Part shown: piece by piece, positions 1 through 37,169 of the stretch
Layout: each line of letters begins with the position of its first letter
Position numbering within the stretch: position 1 is the first letter of the stretch
From: a virus
Length of the DNA stretch: 63,757 nucleotides
Virus record (IMG/VR): IMGVR_UViG_3300019487_000007
Direction: 5' to 3' (one strand)
Notes under the pieces: model-generated
The model's input: the letters and a program-made list of their open reading frames with translations, nothing else
Told to the model about the DNA's origin: nothing
Database searches by the model: none
Position numbers and translations under genes: made by a program

Positions 1-123
1 GTATAAGTCGGGAAGCTTTAGTACCACTGTCGGGTCGTACCTCCAAATAGGCGCATCCTCCGTGGAGGTAGCCATCAACACCACCGACACCGTCCTCGTC
101 TCGTCATGGATTAACTTGGTCGA
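1..123. repeat. Terminal direct repeat, left copy; identical to 63635-63757 (assembly overlap of a circular or terminally redundant genome)
   Basis: Base-by-base comparison of the first 123 nt (gtataagtcgggaagc...ttaacttggtcga) with the last 123 nt shows identity. Confidence 0.95.
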
Positions 124-220
124 CGGGGCTAAGGCAGATGTCCACCTTGCCATTAACGGTGTTGGAGGGGACGGCGCCCTTGATCCTCAGTTTGGTGTTA
201 TTGCGGCAGAGTTTCGCTGA
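2..220 (+). CDS. C-terminal part of the junction-spanning virion-associated hypothetical protein (continuation of CDS 63036..63757)
   Basis: The frame of 63036..63757 stays open through the repeat and continues through 124-220 (..VDGAKADVHLAINGVGGDGALDPQFGVIAAEFR, TGA at 218-220). Bases 2-123 duplicate 63636-63757. Confidence 0.6.
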   Translation, partial: YKSGSFSTTVGSYLQIGASSVEVAINTTDTVLVSSWINLVDGAKADVHLAINGVGGDGALDPQFGVIAAEFR

Positions 221-419
221 GCCCTCTCAGTTCGGCCTCTAGTACCTTCAAGGCCATCGCAGCGTCGGCGACGCCTGACCAGTCGCCCTCATCCACCTTC
301 ACTCGCAGGTAGGAGCAATAAACGTCCCTTCTCCTTTGCAACTGCCACCGCCTAATCCTAGTCGCAACAAGTGAGGATGAAGCCGCATCTGCGGCAGAGC
401 CATTTTCTTCCTGAGCCAC
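198..419 (-). CDS. hypothetical protein (73 aa)
   Basis: GTG-initiated ORF with no motif. It is the last gene of the minus arm and overlaps the plus-arm end by 23 nt. A 62-nt overlap with the upstream ORF makes the start uncertain. Confidence 0.3.
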   Translation of the reverse strand: MAQEENGSAADAASSSLVATRIRRWQLQRRRDVYCSYLRVKVDEGDWSGVADAAMALKVLEAELRGLSETLPQ

Positions 420-555
420 GAATCATCTCCTTTCCGCAGGAGGGGCACCCCTCCCCGTTGAGAGGAAGGGGAGAACAAGAAGGAGAAGGGGAAGGAAGAT
501 TAGAAGAATCTTCATCCCTTCTCCTAGACCCCCCAATCGTCTTGACCGACCGCAT
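358..555 (-). CDS. small zinc-ribbon protein (65 aa)
   Basis: ATG ORF with a CPSCG-x13-CRRCG pattern. The N-terminal half is S/P-rich low complexity. Confidence 0.35.
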   Translation of the reverse strand: MRSVKTIGGSRRRDEDSSNLPSPSPSCSPLPLNGEGCPSCGKEMIRGSGRKWLCRRCGFILTCCD

Positions 556-703
556 GAAAATGCCACGATGGCGGTCCCATCAGCGGAAGGTCCCGCCACT
601 CACCATGAGCTAGAAGGCGTGCTTGGTTCTCTGCCTCTACCGCATCCTCCGCCTCGACCCGCACATCGAAGTTCGCTGTGACGAAGACGTTAAAGGTTCT
701 CAC
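524..703 (-). CDS. hypothetical protein (59 aa, below the ORF-track cutoff)
   Basis: The GTG start shares a GTGA with the stop of 700..945. The translation VRTFNVFVTANFDVRVEAEDAVEAENQARLLAHGEW.. looks protein-like. Confidence 0.35.
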   Translation of the reverse strand: MRTFNVFVTANFDVRVEAEDAVEAENQARLLAHGEWRDLPLMGPPSWHFHAVGQDDWGV

Positions 704-945
704 CCCTCGTCCTCCACCAACTCCACCCGATCAAAAGACGAGAAAGCAGCGACGTTTCTCTGAGCGTCAATGGGGTTGACGGGGAACCCATCAATGTACC
801 GCTGTGGGGCGAGACCCGTCGGATCCCCATACATCGGCGGCGCCCCGATGTTCTGTGTAATGATCAGGACCGAACCGTAGACAGCAAAGCCATCGGCCCC
901 CGGGTAGTAGTGCTCGGCCCCTTGAGAATAAACCCTAACTCCCAT
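700..945 (-). CDS. hypothetical protein (81 aa)
   Basis: ORF whose start overlaps the upstream stop by 1 nt (TGATG). No motif. Confidence 0.5.
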   Translation of the reverse strand: MGVRVYSQGAEHYYPGADGFAVYGSVLIITQNIGAPPMYGDPTGLAPQRYIDGFPVNPIDAQRNVAAFSSFDRVELVEDEG

Positions 946-1277
946 CAGTTTCCCTCCTCTTTAACTTCCTTCACCGCCTCTTCGACTTCCTTCACCTCTG
1001 CCTTGATGGAGACGTTGAAGTCGTGCGCTCCCGTCGGCATCTTCACGAAGGTGTCCGCTCCAATATTGCCCCCCGGCATAGCCTCCCAAATGGCGCGCTC
1101 AAGGAGGCGCATCTGGGTGGAAGGGTCCTTAAGGCGAGGGCCTCTGAGAACAAACTTCACCGTCACCGTCACGTCGTAGTCGTCCGCAGGGGGCACCTCC
1201 ACGGTCTCTGCCTTCTCCGGAACAACGTCAATCACTTCCCCTGACACTTCCCCTGACACTTCCTCAACCCCACTCAT
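945..1277 (-). CDS. hypothetical acidic protein (110 aa)
   Basis: The ATG at 1277 forms an ATGA overlap with the polymerase stop at 1274-1276. Start refined from the track's 1301. Confidence 0.55.
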   Translation of the reverse strand: MSGVEEVSGEVSGEVIDVVPEKAETVEVPPADDYDVTVTVKFVLRGPRLKDPSTQMRLLERAIWEAMPGGNIGADTFVKMPTGAHDFNVSIKAEVKEVEEAVKEVKEEGN

Positions 1278-3412
1278 TCCTTTTCCTCCATCTCCGACCA
1301 CGCTTTAGTGGTCCTCTTCACACTTACTCCAATTGAGAGGCCATTCAATTCTGGCCACTCCCTCTCCATCACCGACTTCACAAAAGACGTCACCCCTTCC
1401 TCCCTCTCTGGGTCGCATTGAAGAATGATCGCGTCGTGGATGGGAATCAAGAGCTCGAACGCTCCCTCTTCCTCACCTTCTCCCAATTCCACCAGCGTCC
1501 ACCGCAACATTGAGGCGGCCGTCGATTGGGGTAGGAACGCGAGGGCCTCGTTCGCCTCCTCTCCTAGTCTCCACTCCCCCTTCTTTGTCTTGCTGAAAAC
1601 GGAGAAGAAGTAGCGGCGATAGCCGAAGGGATTTTCGAGATACCCGTCATGATGAGCTTGCCGCTGTGTTTGCCCCTTCCACCTAGTCACGATCGGGGCC
1701 ATGCGGTCCTTGATCATGATGAACCGGACTGCTTCAGAGAGGGAACACTTGAGGATGCGCGAGAGGAGCCGGGGCCCCATCCCGTAGCCCAAGGCAAGGT
1801 TGATCTTCTTTCCATCCGCCCTCTCTAGGGGGAAGTTCTTCTTCAGCCAGGAGAGTTTACCCTCTAGATCCGGATCATCGGAATAGAAGGGCTTCTCTAT
1901 CTTCCCCTTGTCGTGAAGCAGGAAGGAAGTGAAGAACCCGTGGGAATCTAGAAGAGAGAGTCGGATGTAACCAAGATCATTGGCGAACCAACCCGTAAGG
2001 ACAGCTTCAATAGCCTTCCAGTCGAATTCTAGCAGTACCTTTCCTGGATCAGGGACGATAGTCCCCCGAATGAGTCGAGCGACATCACCCTCAACCCCGC
2101 CGCCCCTACCTTGGGGGACATTCTGCACGTTCGGGCGTCTGGAATTACCCGTTATTGCTATTTGGTTATCGGATTTAATTATCCAAGTTCCACAGGCTGT
2201 TTGAGGACACCAGACAGGCACATTCTTTTCGACACTCTTCCACAAGGCATATCGCACATTCCTAGATTTGTGTATATGGAAATCGTGGAAGTTGTTCTTA
2301 GTGCGTCGTATGTTCCAGGTAATTCTATGGCCCAATACCGTAGCTAGTGTAGTAAAAGCTTCCATTGCTGGAGCCTTGAGGGCTCCAAAGCGGCCACCAT
2401 CCCGGCCATAGTGTTTTCTGTATGATCCATCGGCCTCCATCATTGCTGCCCACATAGCCTCTCTTGCTGCGAGGGGAAGAGCTAAAACAAACTTAGCAAA
2501 GTTTCCGAATGCCAATACTCTGCGCCAGATGGGATCGAATATTTTAGTTCCCAAATAGAAGACTTCTATTTCTCCTGTACTGGTATGAGTACGCAGGTAC
2601 TTATGTCTTGTGTACTGCAATCCTGTTAGATCTCTCTTAAGATGATCTATAGATTGCTTCTTAACTAAACCAACAGAAAGAACGTACCTTCCAGACTCAA
2701 GCTTTTTGACATGTCCATCTGTGAGCGCCCATCCGGCTATAGCGGCTTCTTGTGAGGATATATCAGACGTGCCTTCTATTCCCGAGGCACTTAGTTTAAG
2801 GTGTAGTATCCCATGGGCATTGACCTTGTCACCGCGAATCAAACCCTCTATCCTAGGAGTAAATCCTACCCATTTATGTTCCGCTGTACTCCTAATACCA
2901 TAAGGCTTTTTTCCGTGCCCTGCTTTGTAGGTATTTCTGAAAGCCATCAATCCTAGATCGCCGCATCCAATATGTACCGCTTCCAGCTCGGTCCACTTCA
3001 AGTGGCCAGTAAGAAGATCGTATCCGACTACCTTCATGCCTACCCTAAGTTGAGGATAGAGTAGCCAGCCCTCTTCCGTTAAAATCTCCGCATCTATACC
3101 TACACAGGAAAGCCTCCCCGTATCGGGCTCGAAAGGAAACTCAGAATGGAATCGCCCGTCCTTCCCCAGATAGGCGTCTCGAAGATCTCCAAGTCCCTTC
3201 TTGAGATGTCTAATATCGACTGCAAGCGGGATAAGGGGATCCTGGGGATGCTCAGTAAGTATCTTCTCAAGGGCCTCCTCGTCGGTGGTAGGTTTACGGG
3301 TCTTGCGATGAAGAGGGACCGCGTACTTTTTCCAGGCAAAGTATTTTAGGAGCTGCTTCTGAGAGGTGGCATTGAACTCCTCAGGGAGGGCCCACCTTTT
3401 GATTTCGATCAC
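1274..3412 (-). CDS. Family-A DNA polymerase, polymerase-domain fragment, interrupted by an intein
   Basis: Motifs: FNATSQKQLLKYF, TRKPTTDEEALEKIL, DTGRLS|intein|SRRPNVQNVPQ (compare TGRLSSxxPNLQNIP), LLEFDWKAIEAVL (motif A-like), IPIHDAIILQ (motif C-like). The GTG start overlaps the upstream stop (GTGA). Confidence 0.9.
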   Translation of the reverse strand: MIEIKRWALPEEFNATSQKQLLKYFAWKKYAVPLHRKTRKPTTDEEALEKILTEHPQDPLIPLAVDIRHLKKGLGDLRDAYLGKDGRFHSEFPFEPDTGRLSCVGIDAEILTEEGWLLYPQLRVGMKVVGYDLLTGHLKWTELEAVHIGCGDLGLMAFRNTYKAGHGKKPYGIRSTAEHKWVGFTPRIEGLIRGDKVNAHGILHLKLSASGIEGTSDISSQEAAIAGWALTDGHVKKLESGRYVLSVGLVKKQSIDHLKRDLTGLQYTRHKYLRTHTSTGEIEVFYLGTKIFDPIWRRVLAFGNFAKFVLALPLAAREAMWAAMMEADGSYRKHYGRDGGRFGALKAPAMEAFTTLATVLGHRITWNIRRTKNNFHDFHIHKSRNVRYALWKSVEKNVPVWCPQTACGTWIIKSDNQIAITGNSRRPNVQNVPQGRGGGVEGDVARLIRGTIVPDPGKVLLEFDWKAIEAVLTGWFANDLGYIRLSLLDSHGFFTSFLLHDKGKIEKPFYSDDPDLEGKLSWLKKNFPLERADGKKINLALGYGMGPRLLSRILKCSLSEAVRFIMIKDRMAPIVTRWKGQTQRQAHHDGYLENPFGYRRYFFSVFSKTKKGEWRLGEEANEALAFLPQSTAASMLRWTLVELGEGEEEGAFELLIPIHDAIILQCDPEREEGVTSFVKSVMEREWPELNGLSIGVSVKRTTKAWSEMEEKE
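2144..3106 (-). mobile_element. Intein (321 aa) with LAGLIDADG homing-endonuclease domain, inserted in the PolA TGRLS/S motif
   Basis: Starts with Cys (CVGIDAEILTEEG) and has block B STAEH. Two LAGLIDADG-like motifs (IAGWALTDGHV, AAMMEADGSY). Ends ..IAITGN followed by Ser. The extein halves rejoin into the canonical PolA motif. The DNA is visibly more A+T-rich than its flanks. Confidence 0.8.
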
Positions 3413-3642
3413 TGGGGAGCGCCTTCCGAGAACCCCCCAAACTCCTCCGCCTTCTCCTTCTGTAGCTCAAAGAGGATCTTCATGATCTTCTTCGAGGGCC
3501 GCTTAAAGGGGTGCTTGGAGGCTCTCGTGAACTGCTTCACAAGAAGGTGCTCCTTGTCTCTCTTGAGACGCTCCCCGAGGGAGGCCTCTTGGAGGAGGCC
3601 CGTTCCGTGACCGGTCGAGCACGCTTTTCTCTTATTCTTCAT
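3409..3642 (-). CDS. hypothetical basic protein (77 aa) lying between the two polymerase fragments
   Basis: The ATG overlaps the stop of the zinc-ribbon frame by 11 nt. Its own stop shares a GTGA with the polymerase-domain start. Confidence 0.45.
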   Translation of the reverse strand: MKNKRKACSTGHGTGLLQEASLGERLKRDKEHLLVKQFTRASKHPFKRPSKKIMKILFELQKEKAEEFGGFSEGAPQ

Positions 3643-3802
3643 TCCCTAGCCTTCTCTTTCCCTTTGGGAAGAACTTCCCGAGGCACTCATCGCAGACTGG
3701 GAGGTCTCGTCCTTTGAGGACGAGGCGGTCTTCTTCCCCCGCTTCGTAGACCCTGAGGATGATCGCGGTGACTTCTCCTTCACCGCACGCGCCGCACGGG
3801 GT
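3632..3802 (-). CDS. Zinc-ribbon segment in the -1 frame relative to the upstream polymerase ORF (separate mini-gene or frameshifted C-terminus)
   Basis: The frame reads TPCGACGEGEVTAIILRVYEAGEEDRLVLKGRDLPVCDECLGKFFPKGKRR (CxxC-x27-CxxC). Over the same bases the 552-aa frame reads S/K/R-rich low complexity. Confidence 0.45.
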   Translation of the reverse strand, partial: TPCGACGEGEVTAIILRVYEAGEEDRLVLKGRDLPVCDECLGKFFPKGKRRLGNEE

Positions 3803-5304
3803 TTCTTCTCCTTCGGAATCCTCTCCAGATAACCTTCCTCCGACAATCGCCAACCCTTCTTGAGCTCCTCCACTCGGTCGTCCACTAGGAGGAGTTGTTC
3901 CCTCTTGTAGCCCTTCTTTTCCAAGGTTTCCAATGGGAGCATAAAAGTCTTCCTCGGACAGAGGTCGATCGGCACCACCTTCTGAACAGCCCTCTCTCTC
4001 TCCTTTAACCACGCTTCGATTGTCTCCCGCGCCGCCTGGCGCCGCTCTTTATCAACTCTGATTCCCCTTCTGCTCATCCGCTTTAGGACAGTCCCACACC
4101 TGACAAAATGGCGCAGGAACATGTTCCATCGCCCCTCAGCCTCAAGCTTTGCTCGGATCTTGTTGTGCGCGCGGAGGAGGAGGTCCGAGTCGGAGGCAGA
4201 GTAGAATTCTGGCTTCTCCCTCACCTCCAACTTCCAGGGCTCTGCGTCGGGGAGAAGGACGCTCACGACAAATCTTAGGCTCATTGGAAGGGCACTCTCA
4301 AGGCACTTCCACTCGTGCATGACATCTATGAAGTCACCCTCGATGGGGCAGTTGTTCGCCTCAAGGCGGGGGACATCGAAGTTGAGACCGTTGAAGGCGA
4401 TCTTTGGGCCGGGGGAAGAAAGGAGGCGCACTGCTAGGGAGATGAACGGCTCTCTCCACTGGAAGGTGATAGCCTCCCCTTCCTTGAAGGAGAAGGAGAT
4501 TCTCAGAATCGTGAAAGACTCGTCGTCTTCTATCGAGAAATTGTACGGGTCCTCATCCTTCTCCGCCTTCTTTACGTAGGGCGTTTCAATGTCGAATGCT
4601 AGGGGGAGGTCAGGAGTTCCAGCCAGAGCCGTCTCGTAGTCCTCCACAAAACGAAGCAGATCAAAAGGAGAAGGATTAAGAGTGTAGCGAGTGACCCTCT
4701 CTGGGAGCCCGTGACGCGCGACCTGAACCGCCTTAAGGAGATCAAGCTTCACCACCCGAGAGAGATGGACCTTCCCCCTGATGAGATAAGAGGGGTGATA
4801 GGTGCCGATGACAGGGAGGCCTTTGGGTCCCCTGAAGACATAACCACGGAGAGTGTCGATCCCCTCGGGGCGCCCGGTCAATGCCTTCAAGGCGACGCCC
4901 CCGACTGCGACGATCACCCGAGGCTTTAACTCTTCGATCGCTTCTAGGGCGTAGCGGCGACACTTCTCGACTGCCTCTTTTTCGTAGGGCGCCAAGTCGT
5001 TGTTTGGGGGACGACACATGACCGTGTTGCGGACCCAAAAGTCACGATCAATGGAGAGGGGGAGGTTCGTCTCGGGGTCGATTGTCCGAGAGATGATTCT
5101 AGAGAGGAAGGAGCCAGTCTTCCCAACGAAGGCGATGCCCGCCAGCTCCTCTTCTTCCCCTAGGGCTTCACCAAAGATAAGGATCTTCTCCTTTCCTTCT
5201 CCTCTCGTACGAGAGAAGCCGAAGCCATCACCGAAGAGGGGGCAGCCCTTACACGTTGGAGGTTTAGGGAGGAGGTCTTTTCTGAGCTTGATGATGTTAA
5301 TCAA
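3646..5304 (-). CDS. Family-A DNA polymerase N-terminal fragment: UDG-like domain + 3'-5' exonuclease + start of pol domain
   Basis: Family-4 UDG-like motifs (CKGCPL, IFGEALG, MCRPPNN, YHPSYLIRG). DnaQ-type exonuclease motifs (AFDIETPY, FNGLNFDVPRL, YSASDSD). Then VLKRMSRRGIRVD (pol-domain N-terminus). TTG start. The last ~50 codons are probably not genuine coding. Confidence 0.85.
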   Translation of the reverse strand: MINIIKLRKDLLPKPPTCKGCPLFGDGFGFSRTRGEGKEKILIFGEALGEEEELAGIAFVGKTGSFLSRIISRTIDPETNLPLSIDRDFWVRNTVMCRPPNNDLAPYEKEAVEKCRRYALEAIEELKPRVIVAVGGVALKALTGRPEGIDTLRGYVFRGPKGLPVIGTYHPSYLIRGKVHLSRVVKLDLLKAVQVARHGLPERVTRYTLNPSPFDLLRFVEDYETALAGTPDLPLAFDIETPYVKKAEKDEDPYNFSIEDDESFTILRISFSFKEGEAITFQWREPFISLAVRLLSSPGPKIAFNGLNFDVPRLEANNCPIEGDFIDVMHEWKCLESALPMSLRFVVSVLLPDAEPWKLEVREKPEFYSASDSDLLLRAHNKIRAKLEAEGRWNMFLRHFVRCGTVLKRMSRRGIRVDKERRQAARETIEAWLKERERAVQKVVPIDLCPRKTFMLPLETLEKKGYKREQLLLVDDRVEELKKGWRLSEEGYLERIPKEKKPRAARAVKEKSPRSSSGSTKRGKKTASSSKDETSQSAMSASGSSSQREREG

Positions 5305-5307
5305 GCT

Positions 5308-5640
5308 TCACCGCGTGTCGCCCTCTCCCTTGAGGACGCCCCTCCTCTGCCTGTCCTGAAGCTTCTCTAAGTTCGCCTCTGCCACTTCCTCTAGGGTATA
5401 ACCCAACTCATGCGCGGCGAGCGCAACGTACCAGAGCACGTCTGAGAGTTCCAACATGAGGGCTCGCTCGGCCTTCTCGGTACTGAGGAGGTTCCTAGCG
5501 CCCTTCCGAACCTCCTTCTTAATCTTGTCAACGTACTCACCGCTCTCCCCCGCCAGACCTAGGGCAGTGTAGATAAGGCCAATGTCTTCCGGATAGACGG
5601 CCGTTCTCCGCGCCGCCTCCTGATAATCATTCATCTCCAC
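5308..5640 (-). CDS. mazG: MazG-like nucleoside triphosphate pyrophosphohydrolase
   Basis: YQEAARRTAVYP..LGLAGESGEY..LELSDVLWYVA..ANLEKL is the typical all-alpha MazG signature. Confidence 0.85.
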   Translation of the reverse strand: MEMNDYQEAARRTAVYPEDIGLIYTALGLAGESGEYVDKIKKEVRKGARNLLSTEKAERALMLELSDVLWYVALAAHELGYTLEEVAEANLEKLQDRQRRGVLKGEGDTR

Positions 5641-6226
5641 GCGCGATCACTCCTAATCTTTCTAGCTTTCTCTTAAAAGAGGGAAGGTCCCTCACTCGGA
5701 GACGCTGGGGATAGTCCATTCCCTTGTTGTAGTTTCGCTCCATCAAGAAGGAGAGGACGCCCTTTGAGTGGAGATCTCTTACCGTCTCCTCCTTGTCGTC
5801 GATGAAGGCTCGGAGGCCCAAGGCCTTTACTACCCCGGCCTTTTCTCTCCACCCCTCTACTAGTCGGACTCCCTTCACTTCTACGTCGTGGCGACGTAGC
5901 CATGACTTCGTGGCCGCCCACGCGCCTCCAGGGCGTGAGGAGACGATCCAGACGTCGGCCACTTTAGAGAGCTCTTGGAGCGTCTCAAGGGCGTTGGGGA
6001 GGGGGGCGGCCTCCCGGAACATCTCGGAAAGGAGGGGCTCCTCCCAGAGCAGATCAAAGGCCTTCTTGTTCAACTTCTCCAAGGTGTCCCATTCGGGCGG
6101 TCCCCACGCACCCCACCGCTCCGCTAGGCCCATCAGCTCGGCGGCCTTGTCGTTCCAATTGACGACTACACCGTCAGCGTCAACGCCAATCCTCGGCCTA
6201 CTCACCGTCCTCCTCCCCCTCTTCAT
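5627..6226 (-). CDS. HAD-superfamily 5'(3')-deoxyribonucleotidase-like hydrolase
   Basis: DxDxV nucleophile motif (IGVDADGVV), VSSRP, and a FIDDK C-terminal acidic motif, an NT5C-like layout. Confidence 0.7.
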   Translation of the reverse strand: MKRGRRTVSRPRIGVDADGVVVNWNDKAAELMGLAERWGAWGPPEWDTLEKLNKKAFDLLWEEPLLSEMFREAAPLPNALETLQELSKVADVWIVSSRPGGAWAATKSWLRRHDVEVKGVRLVEGWREKAGVVKALGLRAFIDDKEETVRDLHSKGVLSFLMERNYNKGMDYPQRLRVRDLPSFKRKLERLGVIARGDE

Positions 6227-7136
6227 CCCCCGTCTCCGGGTCCAGCCAATGGCGACTAGTGGGAAACTGTCCCAGCTCGATTGGAAGACGCAGCCTTCGC
6301 GCCGTAGCCGTTGAGATCTTCAACTCTTGTGCCACCACCTCATCTAGCGCTCCTCCCTTCTCCTCCCTCTCATTCATCATCGCGTAGACCGTCTTCATGT
6401 CCTCGAAGAGAGGACAGGTAATGGTGGTGCCGTCTTGGTGAAGAAGGAGAGGGACCGGCCGTAGGCGGCGGGAGATCTGACTCTTCTTGTGGTAGAGTCT
6501 AATGTTGAAACGGCCCCGAGGATCGTTGTAACGCTCCAGGTGGAGGCCCACTTGAGCGTCATTGATCCAGTGTTGCGACCCTGAGAAGTTCTCTCCCTTG
6601 TTCTCCTTCATCCTCGGGTCGATTGGGCTCTTCTTGGTATGGTGAATGAAGACGAGGGCCGCTTGGGGATAAAGGTGCTGGAAGTATTCGTAGACCGTCA
6701 CCGGGGTGGCGGAGTCTTTGTCGTCGAGGCGGTGGACTTTTCGGAGGGTGTTGAGAAAGACTACATCCGGGTGGATGTCTTTCTGGAGGCTCTTAAGCTC
6801 GTCCTCCACTTCCTTTCGGATGTTGGGAATCCCTAAAGGTTTGGCGATGTAGAACCAAACGTTGGGAGCGACGGGCTTCTTCCCGATCCTCGCCGCAAGG
6901 GCGTTCTCGGGAGTGTCAACGTCGATGTAAAGGACTCGACCGACGCGGGAGGGAAGGCCGAAAAAGGAAGTTCCCTTCCCAATAGAGGAGGCCATTTCCC
7001 ACGAGACGGGGGACTTTCCTACGCTGCTCTTCGCCCAAAAGAAAGTGATTCCCTCCTTCACTACGAAGGGGTCAATGAAAAATTCGGGCTCCTCCACTTT
7101 CAAGCGGGAGAGTTCGTCCCACGAGTAAAGAGCCAC
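6198..7136 (-). CDS. RecA-fold ATPase, RepA/AAA_25-like (candidate replicative helicase)
   Basis: Walker A FWAKSSVGKSP, Walker B-like DVVFLNTL and FIHHTKK, with a C-terminal HTH-like segment. Confidence 0.6.
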   Translation of the reverse strand: MALYSWDELSRLKVEEPEFFIDPFVVKEGITFFWAKSSVGKSPVSWEMASSIGKGTSFFGLPSRVGRVLYIDVDTPENALAARIGKKPVAPNVWFYIAKPLGIPNIRKEVEDELKSLQKDIHPDVVFLNTLRKVHRLDDKDSATPVTVYEYFQHLYPQAALVFIHHTKKSPIDPRMKENKGENFSGSQHWINDAQVGLHLERYNDPRGRFNIRLYHKKSQISRRLRPVPLLLHQDGTTITCPLFEDMKTVYAMMNEREEKGGALDEVVAQELKISTATARRLRLPIELGQFPTSRHWLDPETGDEEGEEDGE

Positions 7137-7337
7137 TCACTCCTCCTCCACTCGGAGGAACCATCCATCGAAGGGCGGGTCGATCATAGAGAAGGCCTCC
7201 TCGTAGAGCGCTCTCTTTACGTCCTCGCCGTCTTCTACCTCAACCTCAAATGGAAATGTCAGGGTCGCGTTGGCTCTGATCGTCCGAAGACGGTCCTTCA
7301 TCCTTCTCCTTCTTTTCTCTCTCTGCTCTAAGGGCAA
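7137..7337 (-). CDS. hypothetical protein (66 aa)
   Basis: ORF abutting the ATPase start. Overlaps ORF 7246..7455, so the start is uncertain. Confidence 0.4.
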   Translation of the reverse strand: MPLEQREKRRRRMKDRLRTIRANATLTFPFEVEVEDGEDVKRALYEEAFSMIDPPFDGWFLRVEEE

Positions 7338-7455
7338 GCTCTAGAATAGTGTGGATTCGCTCAAGGCGCGCTTCGTGGTGGAGGACCTCAGCGAGGAAGA
7401 TGGCCTCAGGGGAGATTTCCCTCCTAGGGAGTTCCTCACCCTCTTTCAACGTCAT
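7246..7455 (-). CDS. hypothetical protein (69 aa)
   Basis: ORF with a helical-looking N-terminal two thirds. Its tail overlaps 7137..7337. Confidence 0.35.
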   Translation of the reverse strand: MTLKEGEELPRREISPEAIFLAEVLHHEARLERIHTILELALRAEREKKEKDEGPSSDDQSQRDPDISI

Positions 7456-7592
7456 TTAGAGATGTCCAGTGAAAACTTCCCGAGAGTGATGCTGAGGTGG
7501 CAGCACGGTGTGAGGAAGTGAATATCGAAGTAGGTCCAATCCGCGCGAGGCCAATAGGCAAGAAAGAAACGACCCCGCTCAAAGCTCTTCAT
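7452..7592 (-). CDS. hypothetical protein (46 aa)
   Basis: The ATG at 7592 overlaps the exonuclease stop by 1 nt (TGATG). Start refined from the track's 7736. Confidence 0.35.
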   Translation of the reverse strand: MKSFERGRFFLAYWPRADWTYFDIHFLTPCCHLSITLGKFSLDISK

Positions 7593-8299
7593 CACTTCCC
7601 CCTCTTCTCCAAATCCTTCTCTGTCTTTGCGTCCCACGATCCACAAGCGTTGCAGCGAACCTGAATCTGACGGCCCTTCGCTGCCGAGAACTTCCAGCCT
7701 CTCCTCTGAAGGGAGGTCGAACCGCAAGTGCGGCATCTCCCAACGTCGTGCGTCACTCTAGGATGCGTGAGGATGAAGGGGGCGAACTTCCTGTAGGCGG
7801 CCTCCGTGACTTGCACATCCACCTTACAGTGGTGGGCGATTCGTCGAAGCGCGGCCTTGTCACCGTAGAGCACCTTCTCGAAATCGGGGGCCGGGTTGTA
7901 CCACTTCCTGGGGACTCCAGGAAGATGTCGTGAGACGTTGTCTAGGGAGTTACGGGAGAACTTGAAGCGCTTCCGTACCTTGCCCCAGAGATCGAGGGTC
8001 GTAACGTCCTTTGGTGCAGGTAGGCCGTGGAGGATCGCCCTCGTCCGGAGGAACGGTTCGTCGTGGCCTCCAGAGTACCACCCCACTGCAATGTCCGCTC
8101 GGTTCCAGACATTCTCGATAAACCACCGCACCAGCTCACGGTCATCGAGGGGGTGCCTTCCCGAGATGTCGTGGATCGTCTTGACGTGGACTGTCTTTTC
8201 TCCAAGCCACTGCCAACCGATGCAGAGGATAGAGCCGTAGTCACCGACTAGGCCCCTCGACTCGATGTCCCAAAGAAGGACCTTCGCTTTGTCACTCAT
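7592..8299 (-). CDS. RNase H-fold 3'-5' exonuclease (DnaQ/PolB-exo-like) with C-terminal zinc ribbon
   Basis: LLWDIES (Exo I DxE), GWYSGGHDEPFL, HHCKVDV, and C-terminal CRTCG..CNACG. Confidence 0.75.
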   Translation of the reverse strand: MSDKAKVLLWDIESRGLVGDYGSILCIGWQWLGEKTVHVKTIHDISGRHPLDDRELVRWFIENVWNRADIAVGWYSGGHDEPFLRTRAILHGLPAPKDVTTLDLWGKVRKRFKFSRNSLDNVSRHLPGVPRKWYNPAPDFEKVLYGDKAALRRIAHHCKVDVQVTEAAYRKFAPFILTHPRVTHDVGRCRTCGSTSLQRRGWKFSAAKGRQIQVRCNACGSWDAKTEKDLEKRGK

Positions 8300-8484: not shown

Positions 8485-8627
8485 TCTTCTTCCTCTTCAT
8501 TATAAGAGTCAAAAAGGGCAGCCTCTCTTTCCTCGATTCGAGAGCAGGTCCAACAGAGCCGGAGCACCTTCTCCCCTTCGTCAAACTCCATCTCTCTTCC
8601 GCAGATGAGGCAGTAAGTTTCTTTCAC
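8481..8627 (-). CDS. small zinc-ribbon protein (48 aa, not in ORF track)
   Basis: The GTG start shares a GTGA with the upstream stop, and its stop shares an ATGA with the downstream start. Sequence: KETYCLICGREMEFDEGEKVLRLCWTCS. Confidence 0.45.
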   Translation of the reverse strand: MKETYCLICGREMEFDEGEKVLRLCWTCSRIEEREAALFDSYNEEEEE

Positions 8628-9091
8628 TTCTTGGGATTCCTCAGCGGGACGCCTGAACGGAGAACCAACTCCAACCTCGCGAGGGCGTTCCAGGCGGTGG
8701 CGGCTGCGTGGTGAAGATCGAGGTAGTGATCGTAGGGACCCTCCGTCTCCTCTGCCAGGAGGTGCCTCACGAGGGCGTCGCCATAGCGGTTAACTCCGTC
8801 TGGGACGGCCTCCCATCCTTTCCAACTGTACTTCTCCGCTCCTTTGAGGGAAACGGTTGCAACGGCCTCTAGAGCACGGGGGAAGTATTGGAGGACTCCC
8901 CTCAAGAGGGGAGGCTTTCCTAGATCCATCTTCGCTCCAGGCTCTCTAGAGTCTTTTCCTAGGGGGTCCTCCTCTAAGGCCCTCTTCACTACCTCTCTCC
9001 CATGTAAGATAATCTCCTCTGAATATGGCTGTACCAACGAGTCGATCGCTTCTAGTGGATCTACCCTACTACGTCTTTTTTTGTATGTCAA
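8624..9091 (-). CDS. DUF5664 / dATP-dGTP diphosphohydrolase-N-domain-like protein
   Basis: GAEKYSWKGWEAVP..NRYGDALVRHLL..LHHAAATAWNALARLE matches my recollection of this widespread phage family. Confidence 0.55.
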   Translation of the reverse strand: MTYKKRRSRVDPLEAIDSLVQPYSEEIILHGREVVKRALEEDPLGKDSREPGAKMDLGKPPLLRGVLQYFPRALEAVATVSLKGAEKYSWKGWEAVPDGVNRYGDALVRHLLAEETEGPYDHYLDLHHAAATAWNALARLELVLRSGVPLRNPKK

Positions 9092-16096: not shown

Positions 16097-16429
16097 TCAT
16101 CGGCACTTAGCGCATCTAGTCGACAACCAGTAGCCCTTGGCTTTGACCTCTCCCGGCTCTCCGCAGAGCTCACAAACATCAAGCGACTTACTTTCCGCTT
16201 GATCAATAAGGTCGTCTACGGCGTCGTTGGAGAAATTTGTGTAGAAGCGCAGGCCCCCGTACTTCTCCTTGATGTCGGTGACTTTAAAGTTCGGGGGTAG
16301 ATCAAGAGCCTTGAGGGCTATCAGAAGGTCTCGAAGGAGCGGTGCCCAGCCGTCTCCGACGCCGAAATACAGGTCCCCCGTGGCGGAGGGGTAGATGGAG
16401 TCGAGTTCCTTTTGAACTTCGAGCTTCAT
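16097..16429 (-). CDS. conserved phage hypothetical protein with KEKYGGLRFY motif and C-terminal zinc ribbon
   Basis: IKEKYGGLRFY and CELCG-x17-CAKC. Confidence 0.55.
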   Translation of the reverse strand: MKLEVQKELDSIYPSATGDLYFGVGDGWAPLLRDLLIALKALDLPPNFKVTDIKEKYGGLRFYTNFSNDAVDDLIDQAESKSLDVCELCGEPGEVKAKGYWLSTRCAKCR

Positions 16430-17553
16430 TTCTGTCTCTCCAAGTAAGCGACACTCACTACCTTTAGGGCGACCCTCCCCACAGCGGGGTGATGGCGCTC
16501 CTCAACCGGCTTCACGACGACACCCTCTCGAAGGTGGTTCGCCCCCTTCACTACAGAAGGCCCTTCTGCCAGGGAGAGAACGGACTCCATGTTGAATGGA
16601 ACGATCCCGATTATGGGAGCAATTGGGATATCGAATGGGTAGAGAAGCTCTGGTAAGAGCATGGCATCGACAAAGCCATCCTCCGCGAGAATGTCAAAGG
16701 CTGCGAAGTCGATCTCCCCCGGGCCTCTTCCGTAACGAAGGTCTTGAACGTCCCCGTAGACTTCCCCATAGAGGGCGACTTCCGGATAGGCCCGGAGGAA
16801 GTCCACCACTTGGGGGTACTTGTCGATCACCTTCCACCAATCGGAGTGGTCCTTCAAACGCCATTGAGTACGACTTCCTACCCATAGGTAACGTTCATGA
16901 GAGGGAACGAGGGAGAGGCCCCGGCCAAAACCGCCCCACTTCATGGCGATAGGCCCGACTCGAAGACCATCCCTCGTGAGGACGATCCACTTCGTGTCGT
17001 CCCAAACGGCTCTAAAGTTGGCGCCGTGGATCTTCTCCGTTACCACCACGGGCTCGCCCTCCTCAAAGAGGGAAGAGTAGCGACGAAGGGATTCGAGATC
17101 GTAGATTGGGACACGAACGTTGGGTCGGAACTTCTTGGTCCACCACGGCTTCCTCTCCTTCTCCTTCGGCTCCTTCGAGGGAGGATCGTAGTGGATGACG
17201 CCTAGAGCTGGCCCAACATCGTCCCCTACGGCCCCGCCGACGCGCCAAATGGGGACGACCACCCCGAGGGAAGGTTCCTTCCGCAGACGGATCGCAGTCA
17301 CTCTGTGGTAGAGACGGCCGTCTATGCTCTTTGACGTGCGGCCCAAGTCCTTGAGCCAGGCGAATTCGACCACGTCCAGAGGGACGAGGCTATCAGGAGG
17401 AACGTAGGCGGCCAGGTCACCCTCCTTCCACTCCCCTTTTCTCACTACGCACTGATAGCCCCAGGGTTTGACGATCTCCAGCGCGTCTGCGTCGGGGTGC
17501 TCGTAAATGCGATCAATCCGGAAGACCTCGACTTTGTGTGTTGAACTACTCAT
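16426..17553 (-). CDS. RNA ligase (DRB0094 / Rnl5-like; N-terminal OB-like domain + nucleotidyltransferase)
   Basis: N-terminus HKVEVFRIDRIYEHPDADALEIV. Motif I TEKIHGAN, motif III ALYGEVYG, motif IV FAAFDIL. Confidence 0.7.
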   Translation of the reverse strand: MSSSTHKVEVFRIDRIYEHPDADALEIVKPWGYQCVVRKGEWKEGDLAAYVPPDSLVPLDVVEFAWLKDLGRTSKSIDGRLYHRVTAIRLRKEPSLGVVVPIWRVGGAVGDDVGPALGVIHYDPPSKEPKEKERKPWWTKKFRPNVRVPIYDLESLRRYSSLFEEGEPVVVTEKIHGANFRAVWDDTKWIVLTRDGLRVGPIAMKWGGFGRGLSLVPSHERYLWVGSRTQWRLKDHSDWWKVIDKYPQVVDFLRAYPEVALYGEVYGDVQDLRYGRGPGEIDFAAFDILAEDGFVDAMLLPELLYPFDIPIAPIIGIVPFNMESVLSLAEGPSVVKGANHLREGVVVKPVEERHHPAVGRVALKVVSVAYLERQK

Positions 17554-24473: not shown

Positions 24474-25439
24474 CTACGCCGCCTCCTCAATGCCGGCTTT
24501 GTTGAGGGTCGTAAACCAGCCGAGATGGAAATCACTTACATCGTCGAGGCGAAACTCGAAACGCCTTTGCCCGTACTCTGTCTTCTCTCTTACACTCTCT
24601 AGGGTGGAGAAGGTATAGAAGGGCAGGAGGCGTGTCTTCTCCACTAGCTTGTCCAGTCCCTCTCCCGTATTGATGGCCTGTTGGAGAAGGTCTCCCTCCT
24701 TCTCTAAGAAGGGTTGAAAGTCGCGCCAGAGATGAGGTGCGTTTTGAAGAACATGGCGACCCACCCCGAAGACGAAGGAAAAGAAGACCGCGTGGTTCAT
24801 CCATTCAGCGGAGAGAGTTCGATATTCTAGGCCTTGGTAGTTTCCTTCGTGGAAGTCCTTGACTCGATACTCTCCCGCCTTCCCGTAGAGGCACCTCCGT
24901 CTGAAGTGCTCCGGTCTGGCGAACATCCAAGAAAAGGGCGCCCCGAGGAATAGGTCTAAGAGCTTCACGCTCTCTCTGATGTGGGAGGTCCACCACCAAT
25001 CCCGCTTTAGGGCGGAGAACCAAAGGTGGCCCCCGGAGTACCGGAAGGGGTGTGTTAGTCCGTCCACGTCGATCTCGCAGGGGCCATCCTCCCATGCGTT
25101 GAGGGAAGGAGAGCAACCGAAGGTGGCAACATCAACTGGCAGACTCAAGAGGGAGGGTAGAGGAACTTCAATAGATGGAAGAGTGCTGGCTGACAGACCA
25201 GTATTCCGAAGAAAAGCCATGACCCCGGCTCTTAGAGCATTGCCCATAGTGCCTCGGCAGTTGTAGGCGTGGATAAAGTTAACCTCCGCTGCGTAGCCAT
25301 CACGGTAGAGGACGATAGCCTCACTCATCCTAAGCCTAGCCGCCGGGTCTTCTTTCCCATTGCCGAGGCCAGCGTCCGAGGCTGGAATGATCTTGCCCTC
25401 CTTGAGGAGAAAGAATTCTGGATCTGCACCGAGTAACAC
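24474..25439 (-). CDS. phiEco32-type COOH-NH2 ligase (glutamine-synthetase/GCS2-like fold)
   Basis: N-terminal LLGADPEFFLL signature. Preferred start is the GTG at 25439, 8 nt after AAGGGAGGA (the track extends to 25487). Confidence 0.65.
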   Translation of the reverse strand: MLLGADPEFFLLKEGKIIPASDAGLGNGKEDPAARLRMSEAIVLYRDGYAAEVNFIHAYNCRGTMGNALRAGVMAFLRNTGLSASTLPSIEVPLPSLLSLPVDVATFGCSPSLNAWEDGPCEIDVDGLTHPFRYSGGHLWFSALKRDWWWTSHIRESVKLLDLFLGAPFSWMFARPEHFRRRCLYGKAGEYRVKDFHEGNYQGLEYRTLSAEWMNHAVFFSFVFGVGRHVLQNAPHLWRDFQPFLEKEGDLLQQAINTGEGLDKLVEKTRLLPFYTFSTLESVREKTEYGQRRFEFRLDDVSDFHLGWFTTLNKAGIEEAA

Positions 25440-25612
25440 TGTCTGATCCTCCCTTTTCAACCCCCCTCCAGGCTCGGCAGTACGCACCCCTAGGGCGTAC
25501 TGTAAAACGGTAGTGGCTGAAATTTATCTTTTCACGACTCTCTATCTATAGAGGGGGTTGAAAACGGCCTTTCTGCCCCCCTAAAGTGTTGAATTACTGG
25601 GACTTAGCCTTT

Positions 25613-36620: not shown

Positions 36621-37169
36621 ATGGACTACCAGGAGGCCCGTCTCCTCCGTTTCGTCGAGGCCTTCCACGGAAAGGCGGAGGGCGACAGGATCAAAGCCCT
36701 GGAGTTGACCGGAGACGAATACGGCTCTCCCCTCGCGCTGAAGCGTTATTCTACTAAATACAAGGAATACATCTCCGATCGCCTTTACCAGAAGGCCGTC
36801 TATCGAGGCCTGATTAATCCGACCAAGATGGAAGTGGTGGTGGAGGAGGTTCTCTCGAAGGAGCGCCTGCTCGACCTCCTCTCCCGTCAAGCGACCGGAG
36901 AGAAACCTACCAGACGGACGGAAGTCCTAAGAAAGAATCCTGAGACGGGCCTCCTAGAGGCAGTGGAAGTTCGAACCGAGCACGACGAGATAGGCTCGCA
37001 GGAGAACCTGGCAAAGATCCTTGGACTCTTCAAAGAGATTCCCAAGGCCCCCACTACCAAGGTGGAGGAAATCCTGGCGAAGATGACTGGGATGGACAGG
37101 GAGGAGGGGGAGGATCTCCTTCTTGAGGCCTCCCTTCATCTCTTAGATTCCCCCGAGGAGCAGGGGTGA
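36621..37169 (+). CDS. putative terminase small subunit (by position only)
   Basis: Lies immediately upstream of, and GTGA-coupled to, the large terminase. The track ORF starts at 36507 with an Arg-rich stretch that overlaps the previous ORF, so the start is uncertain. Confidence 0.35.
   Translation: MDYQEARLLRFVEAFHGKAEGDRIKALELTGDEYGSPLALKRYSTKYKEYISDRLYQKAVYRGLINPTKMEVVVEEVLSKERLLDLLSRQATGEKPTRRTEVLRKNPETGLLEAVEVRTEHDEIGSQENLAKILGLFKEIPKAPTTKVEEILAKMTGMDREEGEDLLLEASLHLLDSPEEQG

What the first reader, a model, noticed from the sequence alone, without database searches (positions are those of the whole stretch)
1274..5304. Family-A polymerase with UDG-like head is fragmented: three frame changes plus a zinc ribbon and a 77-aa ORF inside the thumb region
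The polymerase reads across four successive ORFs:
- UDG-like domain + 3'-5' exonuclease + pol start (VLKRMSRRGIRVD) in ORF 3646-5304;
- a convincing CxxC-x27-CxxC zinc ribbon, but only in the -1 frame (3632-3802), while the main frame over the same bases degenerates into S/K/R low complexity;
- a 77-aa basic ORF (3409-3642), back in the first frame;
- the rest of the pol domain (FNATSQKQ..., from a GTG at 3412), in the zinc-ribbon frame.

The last two junctions look like ordinary coupled gene boundaries (an 11-nt overlap and a GTGA). This argues for a genuinely split polymerase rather than assembly noise.

The first junction lies near GAG AAG AAA CCC CGT. It has no X_XXY_YYZ slippery heptamer, so it may be a real overlap, an unconventional recoding event, or a 1-nt indel in the A3C4 run.

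UDG-fused PolA enzymes are known from thermophilic viral metagenomes and Aquificae-type polA lineages. Taken with the many zinc ribbons and the charged proteome, this hints at a thermophile-associated phage (inference).
Basis: partly seen in the sequence, partly recalled or inferred. Interest (0 to 1): 0.65.

Follow-up and report, generated by a model that had tools for sequence, protein, structure and literature searches.

The report
Split phage polymerase, frameshifted zinc ribbon
A whole group of uncultured phages shares the layout, so it is real biology rather than a sequencing error.

Summary
On the minus strand, 3646-5304 encodes a family-4 UDG, a 3'-5' exonuclease and the first thumb segment. 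A zinc ribbon (CxxC-x30-CxxC, not x27) lies only in the -1 frame (3632-3802). A 77-aa ORF follows (3409-3642). 1274-3412 encodes the rest of the polymerase.

Three things are new:
- **Intein.** 321 of the 712 residues of the last ORF are a LAGLIDADG intein (2144-3106) inserted in the TGRLS|S motif. An AlphaFold2 model (pLDDT 93.7) matches the PI-SceI, PI-PfuI and TliVMA inteins.
- **Clade-wide split.** More than 100 protein clusters are stand-alone ~390-aa C-halves. In one relative, five genes separate the halves. More distant relatives are single ORFs with the zinc module in frame.
- **Conserved -1 zinc ribbon.** It recurs in seven other independent assemblies. It is under purifying selection in that frame (dN/dS 0.06 against 0.9). 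In several relatives it has no usable start codon.

An independent assembly of the same genome is identical, so an indel artefact is excluded. I found no canonical slippery site and no shared RNA structure, so how the ribbon is made (-1 frameshift or internal start) is unresolved. The 77-aa ORF is a lineage-specific ORFan with native codon usage. The thermophile inference is unsupported.

The parts
3646..5304 (-). N-half gene (552 aa, TTG start, frame A). It holds a family-4 UDG domain (about 4726-5262), a 3'-5' exonuclease (DIET, NGLNFD, YSASD; about 4105-4617), the first thumb helix and the beta-region up to 'EGYLERIPK'. It ends in a 51-aa K/R/S-rich tail that reads across the zinc-ribbon codons out of frame.
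   Evidence: Pfam PF03167. PDB family-4 UDGs E ~1e-20. phrog_17 DNA polymerase. Alignment A2 with four relatives has the 4 Fe-S cysteines, GEALGE and HPS invariant.
3796..3816 (-). First junction (CCG AAG GAG AAG AAA CCC CGT). The conserved frame-A reading ends at 'IPK(EKK)'. The frame-B (-1) reading must begin before Cys1 (TGC, 3796-3794).
   Evidence: Frame translations. No canonical or relaxed slippery heptamer. The downstream fold is not better than shuffles (z -0.33).
3632..3802 (-). Thumb-tip zinc ribbon (TPCGAC-x30-CDEC...GNEE*), encoded only in the -1 frame relative to the N-half.
   Evidence: spacing. Coding score is higher in frame B than A. Homologous ribbons lie in the same -1 register in L010, L013, L026, L077, L078, L079 and L082. 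dN/dS is 0.058 in the ribbon frame against 0.90 in f0 for L079/L082.
3851..3853 (-). Only nearby start candidate for an independent zinc-ribbon protein: a TTG in frame B, 19 codons before Cys1, with GGAGGAG 11-17 nt upstream. It is a by-product of the frame-A Gly-Trp codons.
   Evidence: The equivalent position is GTG in L013 and L077, CTG in L079, and absent in L010 and L026.
3409..3642 (-). 77-aa basic ORFan sitting in the fission gap. Its ATG lies 3 nt after the N-half stop and 11 nt before the ribbon stop. Its TGA overlaps the C-half GTG.
   Evidence: Highest frame-specific coding score in the locus (0.337). No Pfam or PHROG hit. No homologue among the spacer ORFs or loci of relatives. It was called as a gene in public assemblies.
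3107..3412 (-). C-half, N-extein (GTG start, 'VIEIKRWALPEEFNATSQKQ...DTGRLS'): the second thumb helix up to the TGR motif.
   Evidence: Aligns to Taq 197-292. Aligns to stand-alone C-halves of relatives that start at the same point.
2144..3106 (-). 321-aa class-1 intein with a LAGLIDADG homing endonuclease. Features: Cys1, block B 'TAEH', 'IAGWALTDG' and 'AMMEADGS', C-terminal 'ITGN', +1 Ser. It is inserted in TGRLS|SRRPNVQNVP.
   Evidence: Taq alignment brackets it. 1131 representative proteins carry it internally, and PolAs carry it at the same site. AF2 pLDDT 93.7. Foldseek gives TliVMA, PI-SceI and PI-PfuI at E 1e-14 to 1e-11. GC and codon score are lower than the flanks.
1274..2143 (-). 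C-half, C-extein: palm and fingers with motif A (EFDWKAIE), motif B (RADGKKINLALGYG) and motif C (IHDA).
   Evidence: Pfam PF00476. Taq and Klenow alignments, E ~1e-17. Alignment A1.

Best explanation
The locus encodes the phage's only replicative polymerase. It is a UDG-exonuclease-PolA enzyme, naturally fragmented at three levels.

1. **Gene fission in the thumb.** This is an ancestral fission shared by a large clade of uncultured ~64-kb phages. The N-half is UDG, exonuclease and the first thumb segment. The C-half is the second thumb helix, palm and fingers. They are separate genes whose products must reassemble non-covalently. This reassembly is inferred.
2. **The zinc ribbon.** In unsplit relatives it joins the two halves at the thumb tip. 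Here it lies in the -1 register over the 3' end of the N-half gene. Most likely a fraction of ribosomes shift -1 just after 'RIPK(EKK)', which restores the ancestral N-half-ribbon chain (~557 aa). The unshifted product ends in a basic tail. This is inferred and the signal is unknown. The alternative is initiation at TTG 3853, which would give a free ~73-aa zinc protein.
3. **The intein.** The C-half precursor (712 aa) carries a mobile LAGLIDADG intein in the TGR motif. It must splice out to give the active 391-aa C-half.

A lineage-specific 77-aa basic gene occupies the fission gap. It is translationally coupled to both neighbours (stop-3nt-ATG, then GTGA). That would tie expression of the two halves together.

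The confidence of 0.8 applies to the overall architecture: real clade-wide fission, native zinc module in -1 register, intein, ORFan in the gap. The specific claim that the ribbon is attached by -1 frameshifting carries only about 0.45-0.5.
For: **Split**
- The profile search found 179 proteins, almost all 350-430 aa stand-alone C-halves.
- In L009 the halves are 1.85 kb apart with 5 genes between them.
- The C-halves of the window, L009 and L010 start within a few residues of the same 'xRWA' point.
- More distant relatives are single ORFs with the zinc module in frame.
- There is no second PolA in the window.
- Catalytic motifs are intact.

**Not an artefact**
- An independent assembly is identical.

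**Zinc ribbon translated in the -1 frame**
- Eight sequences share the register and the ligands.
- dN/dS is 0.058 in that frame against 0.90 and 1.1 in the other frames. Substitutions by codon position are 5/6/14.
- The codon score favours frame B.
- In L078 the ribbon's stop overlaps the C-half GTG.

**No own start in relatives**
- The nearest canonical start is 74 codons upstream in L010, 107 in L079 and 52 in L026. L010 has not even a rare start within 39 codons.

**Intein**
-.
Against: - There is no X_XXY_YYZ or relaxed slippery site in the window, L026 or L079. Only L013 has a canonical C_CCA_AAG.
- No shared or significant downstream RNA structure was found.
- In L015, L023 and L024 the zinc module is a free-standing ATG-initiated mini-ORF. 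In L008, and apparently in L011 and L014, no ribbon was seen. So covalent attachment, and even presence, is dispensable.
- The window does have a TTG with an upstream GGAGGAG.
- The selection test rests on one pair and 31 codons.
- Assembly of the halves, splicing and frameshifting are untested.
Confidence: 0.8

Rival explanations
1. The zinc ribbon is made as a free ~73-aa protein from the in-gene TTG at 3853-3851 (frame B). It would join the polymerase as a third small subunit, as in relatives where it is a separate ATG-initiated mini-ORF. No recoding would be needed.
For: - A TTG lies 19 codons before Cys1, with GGAGGAG 11-17 nt upstream.
- L013 and L077 have GTG at the homologous position.
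- L015, L023 and L024 encode the zinc module as an independent ORF that starts at the N-half stop.
Against: - The start is a by-product of the frame-A Gly-Trp codons (GGN TGG).
- It is CTG in L079 and absent in L010 and L026. Yet the ribbon is conserved there, and in the L079 lineage it is under purifying selection.
- The spacing from the Shine-Dalgarno-like sequence is long.
Confidence: 0.3
2. The -1 ribbon is a relic of an ancestral 1-nt deletion and is no longer expressed. The enzyme works as N-half (with basic tail) plus C-half only.
For: - L008 has no ribbon, and none was apparent in L011 or L014, so it is dispensable in the clade.
- No frameshift signal was found.
Against: - All four metal ligands and an open ~55-codon frame are kept in eight diverged sequences.
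- dN/dS is 0.058 in the ribbon frame against ~1 in the other frames.
- The codon score favours frame B.
Confidence: 0.1
3. The first junction is a sequencing or assembly indel in the A3C4 run, and the real gene is continuous through the zinc ribbon.
For: One extra base in AAACCCC would restore the frame.
Against: - Contigs from different assemblers (JGI 63,757 nt; ENA MEGAHIT 63,774 nt; Logan) encode identical proteins. The ENA contig is base-identical over 9.3 kb.
- Seven other assemblies, from different samples and lineages, have the same -1 register.
Confidence: 0.03
4. The gap (zinc ribbon plus 77-aa ORF) is a self-splicing intron or a homing-endonuclease cassette, so the mRNA or protein is rejoined into one polymerase.
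For: Phage polymerase genes are often interrupted by group I introns, and split genes with small ORFs have been interpreted this way (PMC10580990).
Against: - There is no Rfam family at E<=1 in 1-8000.
- The 77-aa ORF has no endonuclease or any other family hit.
- The halves lie in different frames with proper stop and start codons.
- In L009 five ordinary genes lie between the halves.
Confidence: 0.03

Closest known systems
UDG-PolA phage polymerases (N4-like cluster 17; SPO1, SP-10, SP-15 type), Czernecki et al. 2023, PMC10201439
   Same: [quoted passage not shown] It is a phage replicative enzyme. As in the non-N4 UDG-PolAs, the UDG motifs (4 Cys, GEALG, HPS) are retained. Nucleotide-pool genes (MazG, NT5C) sit next to it.
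   Different: The published enzymes are single polypeptides. This one is split inside the thumb, carries a thumb-tip zinc ribbon and an intein, and has HDA/HDS instead of HDE in motif C. Sequence identity to any phage in GenBank is <=31%.
Exo/pol gene fission in S-SBP1-like T7-like cyanophage PolAs (PMC10201439, section 32)
   Same: A PolA is divided into two adjacent genes by a frameshifting indel plus a new start codon. The products are predicted to reassemble. L008 in this clade looks exactly like that (250-nt out-of-frame overlap).
   Different: That fission lies between the exonuclease and polymerase domains. Here it lies inside the polymerase domain, at the thumb tip. It is much more widespread (>100 clusters), and the halves can be separated by other genes.
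Split DNA polymerase with a small unknown ORF in OM43 phages MEP401/MEP402 (PMC10580990)
   Same: A family-A polymerase is encoded as two genes with a small ORF of unknown function between them.
   Different: It belongs to a different phage lineage (Zobellviridae). That paper reports no out-of-frame zinc module or intein, and its authors suspected an intron.
dnaX tau/gamma -1 programmed frameshift (E. coli) and B. subtilis cdd CGA_AAG shift (from my own knowledge; cdd cited in PMC5009743)
   Same: A replication gene would yield two C-terminally different products by a -1 shift at Lys codons. SD-like purine-rich sequence is nearby.
   Different: dnaX has A_AAA_AAG plus a hairpin, and cdd has A_AAG. 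The window has neither, and no conserved structure was found.
LAGLIDADG inteins PI-SceI, PI-PfuI, TliVMA (PDB 1vde, 1dq3, 7qsu)
   Same: HINT splicing fold with an inserted two-motif LAGLIDADG endonuclease. Features include Cys1, TxxH and a terminal Asn plus a nucleophile.
   Different: Only ~11-13% identity. The penultimate residue is Gly ('TGN'), not His. The host site is the PolA TGR motif. Pfam models do not detect it.
Thioredoxin-binding domain of T7 gp5 (from my own knowledge)
   Same: An accessory module inserted at the thumb tip just upstream of the FNPSS/FNATS motif. It is plausibly involved in DNA or processivity contacts.
   Different: It is unrelated in sequence, is not a zinc ribbon and is not at a gene fission.

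Membership tests
Family A DNA polymerase | Pfam DNA_pol_A match above the curated cut-off, plus motifs A (D..E), B (R..K...YG) and C (HD) | tested here: met
   PF00476 at 110 bits (cut-off 34.3). Taq and Klenow alignments. EFDWKAIE, RADGKKINLALGYG and IHDA are conserved in A1. The motif C Glu is replaced by Ala/Ser clade-wide.
Family A DNA polymerase | Single polypeptide carrying thumb, palm and fingers | tested here: not met
   The thumb is divided between ORF 3646-5304 and ORF 1274-3412.
Family-4 uracil-DNA glycosylase domain | UDG superfamily fold match, four Fe-S cysteines, GE(A/P)xG motif and HPS motif | tested here: met
   PF03167 E 1.2e-19. TM0511 and T. thermophilus UDG at E 1e-20 to 1e-18. 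C18, C21, C97, C115, GEALGE and H170-P-S are invariant in A2. Activity was not tested.
UDG-PolA (N4-like cluster 17 of PMC10201439) | Clustering with N4-like sequences; degenerate UDG catalytic residues | not tested
   No clustering was done. The UDG motifs here look intact, unlike the description of cluster 17. The best GenBank phage hits have <=31% identity.
Intein (class 1, endonuclease-containing) | Insertion inside a conserved host motif, with the exteins rejoining to the uninterrupted consensus | tested here: met
   TGRLS|...|SRRPNVQNVP restores the Taq TGRLSSSDPNLQNIP motif and the intein-free C-halves.
Intein (class 1, endonuclease-containing) | Cys/Ser at position 1, block B TxxH, C-terminal Asn, Cys/Ser/Thr at +1 | tested here: met
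   C1, T74-A-E-H77, N321 and +1 Ser. They are invariant or nearly invariant in the 51-sequence alignment A4.
Intein (class 1, endonuclease-containing) | Penultimate His | tested here: not met
   The penultimate residue is Gly ('ITGN'). T319 and G320 are invariant and N321 is nearly invariant in alignment A4. Non-His penultimate residues are known in functional inteins (PMC3556154 cites Gly-Gln).
Intein (class 1, endonuclease-containing) | HINT fold plus LAGLIDADG endonuclease fold | tested here: met
   AF2 pLDDT 93.7, pTM 0.92. Foldseek top hits are TliVMA, PI-SceI and PI-PfuI at E 4e-14 to 2e-11, TM 0.6-0.67, followed by I-DmoI.
Intein (class 1, endonuclease-containing) | Occurs in unrelated host proteins (mobility) | tested here: met
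   There are 1131 representatives. Hosts include several PolA lineages at the same site, a 2211-aa tape-measure-like protein (two copies) and others.
Intein (class 1, endonuclease-containing) | Protein splicing activity | not testable with these tools
   Needs expression of the 712-aa precursor.
-1 programmed ribosomal frameshift | Slippery heptamer X_XXY_YYZ at the frame junction | tested here: not met
   None in the window, L026 or L079, even allowing one mismatch. Only L013 has C_CCA_AAG.
-1 programmed ribosomal frameshift | Downstream stimulatory hairpin or pseudoknot, conserved among relatives | tested here: not met
   The window has an 8-bp hairpin, but z is -0.33. Only L026 is significant (z -4.2). 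There is no shared structure.
-1 programmed ribosomal frameshift | Conserved -1 ORF without its own start, under purifying selection | tested here: inconclusive
   This is met in relatives. In L010, L026 and L079 the nearest canonical start in the -1 frame lies 52-107 codons upstream, and dN/dS is 0.058 for L079/L082. The window itself has a TTG 19 codons upstream.
-1 programmed ribosomal frameshift | Trans-frame protein detected | not testable with these tools
   Needs mass spectrometry or a reporter assay.
Group I intron / intron-encoded HEG interruption | Ribozyme structure match; endonuclease ORF | tested here: not met
   No Rfam match at E<=1 in 1-8000. No family hit for the 77-aa ORF.

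The most novel reading that the evidence does not exclude
A clade of phages uses a conserved, non-canonical -1 recoding event in its DNA polymerase gene, with no slippery heptamer and no shared stimulatory structure. The event would append the thumb-tip zinc ribbon to the N-terminal subunit of a naturally two-subunit family-A polymerase. It would yield two isoforms, one with a basic tail and one with a zinc ribbon, analogous to dnaX tau/gamma.
Probability: 0.4. Interest if true: 0.78.

Novelty: new variant of a known kind. Interest (0 to 1): 0.62.

Why it matters
- **A natural cut point.** Family-A polymerases are textbook single-chain enzymes and major biotechnology reagents. A large natural clade that cuts the enzyme inside the thumb, and still replicates, marks a tolerated split site. 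That is useful for split-enzyme engineering and for understanding thumb function.
- **A possible new recoding case.** The out-of-frame but selected zinc ribbon is either a new recoding signal or an unusual overlapping gene inside a replication gene. Either way, gene callers miss it.
- **Several kinds of fragmentation in one family.** Fission at three or more points, inteins at five or more sites and small ORFs inserted at the fission point all occur in this family. It is a good system for studying how mobile elements and gene fission reshape an essential enzyme.

Tried and rejected
- **Group I intron or other RNA family:** no Rfam match at E<=1.
- **Known phage relatives by DNA:** none. By protein, only <=31% identity.
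- **Second intact polymerase elsewhere in the window:** none.
- **Assembly indel:** rejected (plus the relatives).
- **Canonical or relaxed slippery sites:** absent in the window.
- **Conserved downstream RNA structure:** absent.
- **Conserved -1-frame start codon:** the candidates are by-products of frame-A Trp or Cys codons and are not conserved.
- **Homologues of the 77-aa ORF:** none in Pfam, PHROGs, the spacer ORFs of relatives, or by tblastn against the loci fetched up.
- **Pfam, PHROGs and PDB sequence search for the intein:** nothing significant.
- **Single-sequence AF2 of the intein:** failed at pLDDT 31. It succeeded only with an alignment.
- **Profile search with conceptual N-half-ribbon fusions (A3):** returned nothing, so one search was wasted.
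- **Pattern scan of IMG/VR for 'PLETLxKKG':** only chance hits.
- **Genome collection scans:** no close relatives and no host clue.
- **Thermophile inference:** composition gives no support.

Full report
**1. What is there**

- **ORF 3646-5304 (552 aa, frame A).**
  - It matches Pfam UDG (E 1.2e-19) and solved family-4 UDGs such as Thermotoga TM0511 (E ~1e-20).
  - Four cysteines, GEALGE and HPS are invariant among relatives.
  - It then carries the ExoI-III motifs of a proofreading exonuclease and runs into the polymerase thumb (VLKRMSRRGIRVD...EGYLERIPK).
  - After 'IPKEKK' frame A becomes a K/R/S-rich tail.
- **Zinc ribbon.** Frame B (-1) reads a clean ribbon. The spacing is CxxC-x30-CxxC, not x27.
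- **Coding frames.** A codon-usage log-odds model trained on the window's long ORFs prefers frame B in 3649-3798. It prefers frame A strongly (0.337, the best score in the locus) for the 77-aa ORF 3409-3642.
- **ORF 1274-3412 (712 aa, frame B).** It matches Pfam DNA_pol_A and Taq/Klenow.
- **Boundaries.**
  - The N-half TAG is followed after 3 nt by the ATG of the 77-aa ORF.
  - That ATG lies 11 nt before the ribbon's TAA.
  - The 77-aa TGA overlaps the C-half GTG as GTGA.

**2.

- **Boundaries.** The Taq alignment of the 712-aa ORF breaks at ...DTGRLS and resumes at SRRPNVQNVP. The 321 residues between (2144-3106) begin with Cys and end with Asn, followed by Ser. They contain TAEH and two LAGLIDADG motifs.
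- **Sequence searches.** Pfam, PHROGs and PDB sequence searches did not see it.
- **Homologues.** Exhaustive HMMER found 1131 representative proteins carrying it as an internal full-length insert. These include fused UDG-PolAs, PolI-like enzymes and split C-halves, all at the same TGRxS| site. They also include a tape-measure-like protein carrying two copies.
- **Structure.** With that alignment AlphaFold2 gave pLDDT 93.7. Foldseek's top hits were the endonuclease-containing inteins TliVMA, PI-SceI and PI-PfuI (E 4e-14 to 2e-11), followed by free LAGLIDADG enzymes.
- **Composition.** The region has lower GC and a lower codon score than its flanks.
- **Consequence.** The mature C-half is 391 aa.

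**3. The split is a clade character**

- **Intact relatives.** A search with a conceptual fused, intein-less protein found intact relatives (P0003-P0006, 840-1502 aa). In these a zinc module sits in frame right before 'xVxRWAxxxFNPxS'.
- **N-half-only proteins.** The same search found P0001 and P0002, which are N-halves only.
- **Stand-alone C-halves.** A profile of three C-halves retrieved 179 proteins at E<=1e-10. Nearly all are 350-430 aa stand-alone C-halves, often on 60-73-kb contigs.
- **Related loci.** HMM mapping of the fetched loci gave three groups.
  - The closer relatives are split at the same thumb point: L008-L015, L023-L027 and L077-L079.
  - The more distant ones (33-37% identity) are single ORFs.
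  - Others are split at two different points.
- **L009.** Five genes, including an AAA_25 protein, lie between the halves. No frameshift or intron could rejoin them.
- **Only one polymerase.** The window has no other PolA.
- **Not assembly noise.**
  - Its own proteins are present in Logan, ENA and JGI assemblies.
  - An ENA MEGAHIT contig of 63,774 nt is base-identical over 9.3 kb and circularly permuted relative to the window.
  - The window itself has a 123-nt terminal overlap, giving a unique length of 63,634.

**4. The first junction**

- **Same register in seven other assemblies.** The ribbon lies in the -1 frame over the N-half's basic tail in L010, L013, L026, L077, L078, L079 and L082. 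The metal ligands align: Cys-Cys...Cys-Cys/His.
- **Selection.** For the close pair L079/L082, dN/dS is 0.058 in the ribbon frame, against 0.90 and 1.1 in the other frames. Substitutions at codon positions 1/2/3 number 5/6/14. The -1 reading is therefore translated, at least in that lineage.
- **No own start in several relatives.**
  - L010: the nearest canonical start is 74 codons upstream, and there is not even a rare start within 39 codons.
  - L079: the nearest canonical start is 107 codons upstream.
  - L026: the nearest canonical start is 52 codons upstream.
  - The window has a TTG 19 codons upstream. It is a by-product of frame-A Gly-Trp codons.
- **Where the shift would be.** Frame-A conservation runs through 'EGYLxRxPK'. 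In L079 Cys1 follows PK by one codon, so any shift must occur at or just after CCG AAG.
- **No known signals.**
  - No canonical or one-mismatch slippery heptamer exists in the window, L026 or L079. Only L013 has C_CCA_AAG.
  - No downstream structure is shared or significant.
- **Other arrangements in the clade.**
  - In L015, L023 and L024 the zinc module is a free mini-ORF that starts at the N-half stop.
  - In L009 and L027 it is in frame at the N-half end.
  - In L008 it is absent, and no ribbon was apparent in L011 or L014.
- **Conclusion.** The ribbon is a real, selected coding element in -1 register. How it is made is unresolved. My estimates:
  - -1 frameshifting that restores the ancestral N-half-ribbon chain: about 0.45-0.5.
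  - Internal initiation giving a free mini-subunit, possible in the window: about 0.3.
  - An unexpressed relic: about 0.1.
  - An artefact: under 0.05.

**5. The 77-aa ORF**

- It has native codon usage and no family hit.
- It has no similarity to the small ORFs that occupy the same gap in relatives: 62 aa in L010, 59 aa in L011, 78 aa in L014, 49 aa in L077, 83 aa in L082, and none in L013, L078 or L079.
- The fission gap therefore behaves as an insertion hot-spot for unrelated small genes.
- Here the ORF is tightly coupled to both halves. Its function is unknown (basic, probably helical; this is inference).

**6. Comparison with what is known**

- **UDG-PolAs.** They are described for N4-like and SPO1-type phages as single chains (PMC10201439).
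- **Other split polymerases.** OM43 phages have a split polymerase with a small unknown ORF (PMC10580990).
- **What differs here.**
  - The fission lies inside the thumb, at a zinc-ribbon insertion. That is the topological position of the T7 thioredoxin-binding domain (from my own knowledge).
  - The ribbon's conserved -1 encoding.
  - The co-occurrence with an intein at the TGR motif.
- **Recoding precedent.** My literature searches and one recoding review turned up no frameshift in a phage PolA gene.
- **Thermophile idea.** It is unsupported. The IVYWREL fraction of 0.393 corresponds to about 33 C by the published regression as I recall it. The UDG-PolA literature does not link the fusion to Aquificae-type polA.

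**7. Verdict**

- The 'genuinely split polymerase' reading is right.
- The zinc ribbon is a native module, not an insert.
- An intein was overlooked.
- The open and interesting point is how the out-of-frame ribbon is expressed.
- Classification: a new variant of known kinds (split PolA, UDG-PolA, intein), with a plausible but unproven new recoding case.

Noticed in passing
window 1-123 and 63635-63757: The two ends are an exact 123-nt direct repeat, so the window is a complete circular (or terminally redundant) assembly with a unique length of 63,634 bp. An ENA MEGAHIT contig of 63,774 nt is a circular permutation of it and is identical over the 9.3 kb compared.
   Followed up: yes
window 5308-5640 (-), 5627-6226 (-), 8624-8989 (-), 24474-25487 (-): MazG pyrophosphohydrolase, NT5C deoxynucleotidase, a dATP/dGTP diphosphohydrolase N-domain protein and a phiEco32-like COOH-NH2 ligase lie around the polymerase. 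The UDG domain has intact motifs. Together this hints at manipulation of the nucleotide pool or a modified base in the phage DNA.
   Followed up: partly
window 7592-8299 (-): A separate 235-aa DnaQ/RNase-H-like protein (PHROG 'DNA polymerase exonuclease subunit', E 3e-37) carries its own C-terminal CxxC...CxxC ribbon. The phage therefore has a second exonuclease besides the one in the N-half.
   Followed up: partly
L001/L053, L009 (P0002), P0006, P0140, P0199, P0212-P0226: This polymerase family carries inteins at five or more different sites: the exonuclease domain, TGRxS|, PNIQN|, ENPFG| and the motif B region. There can be up to two per protein. The window's intein family also occurs twice in a 2211-aa tape-measure-like protein (P0250).
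   Followed up: partly
L029, L031, L032, L034, L039, L046; L044, L047, L051, L052, L067: Relatives of the same polymerase are split at two other positions: about C-half profile position 80, and about N-half profile position 380. Gene fission has therefore happened repeatedly in this family.
   Followed up: no
L008 1991-2241: In the closest N-half relative (49% identity), the C-half ORF overlaps the N-half ORF by 250 nt in the +1 frame. It has no zinc ribbon, spacer ORF or intein. It is either a recent fission of the S-SBP1 type or a +1 shift.
   Followed up: partly
L015, L023, L024 just after the N-half stop: The zinc module is a free-standing ~55-60-aa ORF (MANxCxHxHxCxxCGKPYxC...) that starts at the N-half stop; in L024 the stop and start appear to overlap as TGATG. 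The N-half there ends in a long K/E/R/A-rich tail.
   Followed up: no
window 56949-61505 (+), 37166-38749 (+), 39612-42125 (+), 16426-17553 (-): Other genes found: a 1518-aa internal-virion-protein-like gene, the terminase large subunit, the portal and an RNA ligase. There are no tRNAs. This suggests a podovirus-like virion with ejected internal proteins. The host is unknown; one short related contig was binned in a Terriglobia MAG.
   Followed up: no
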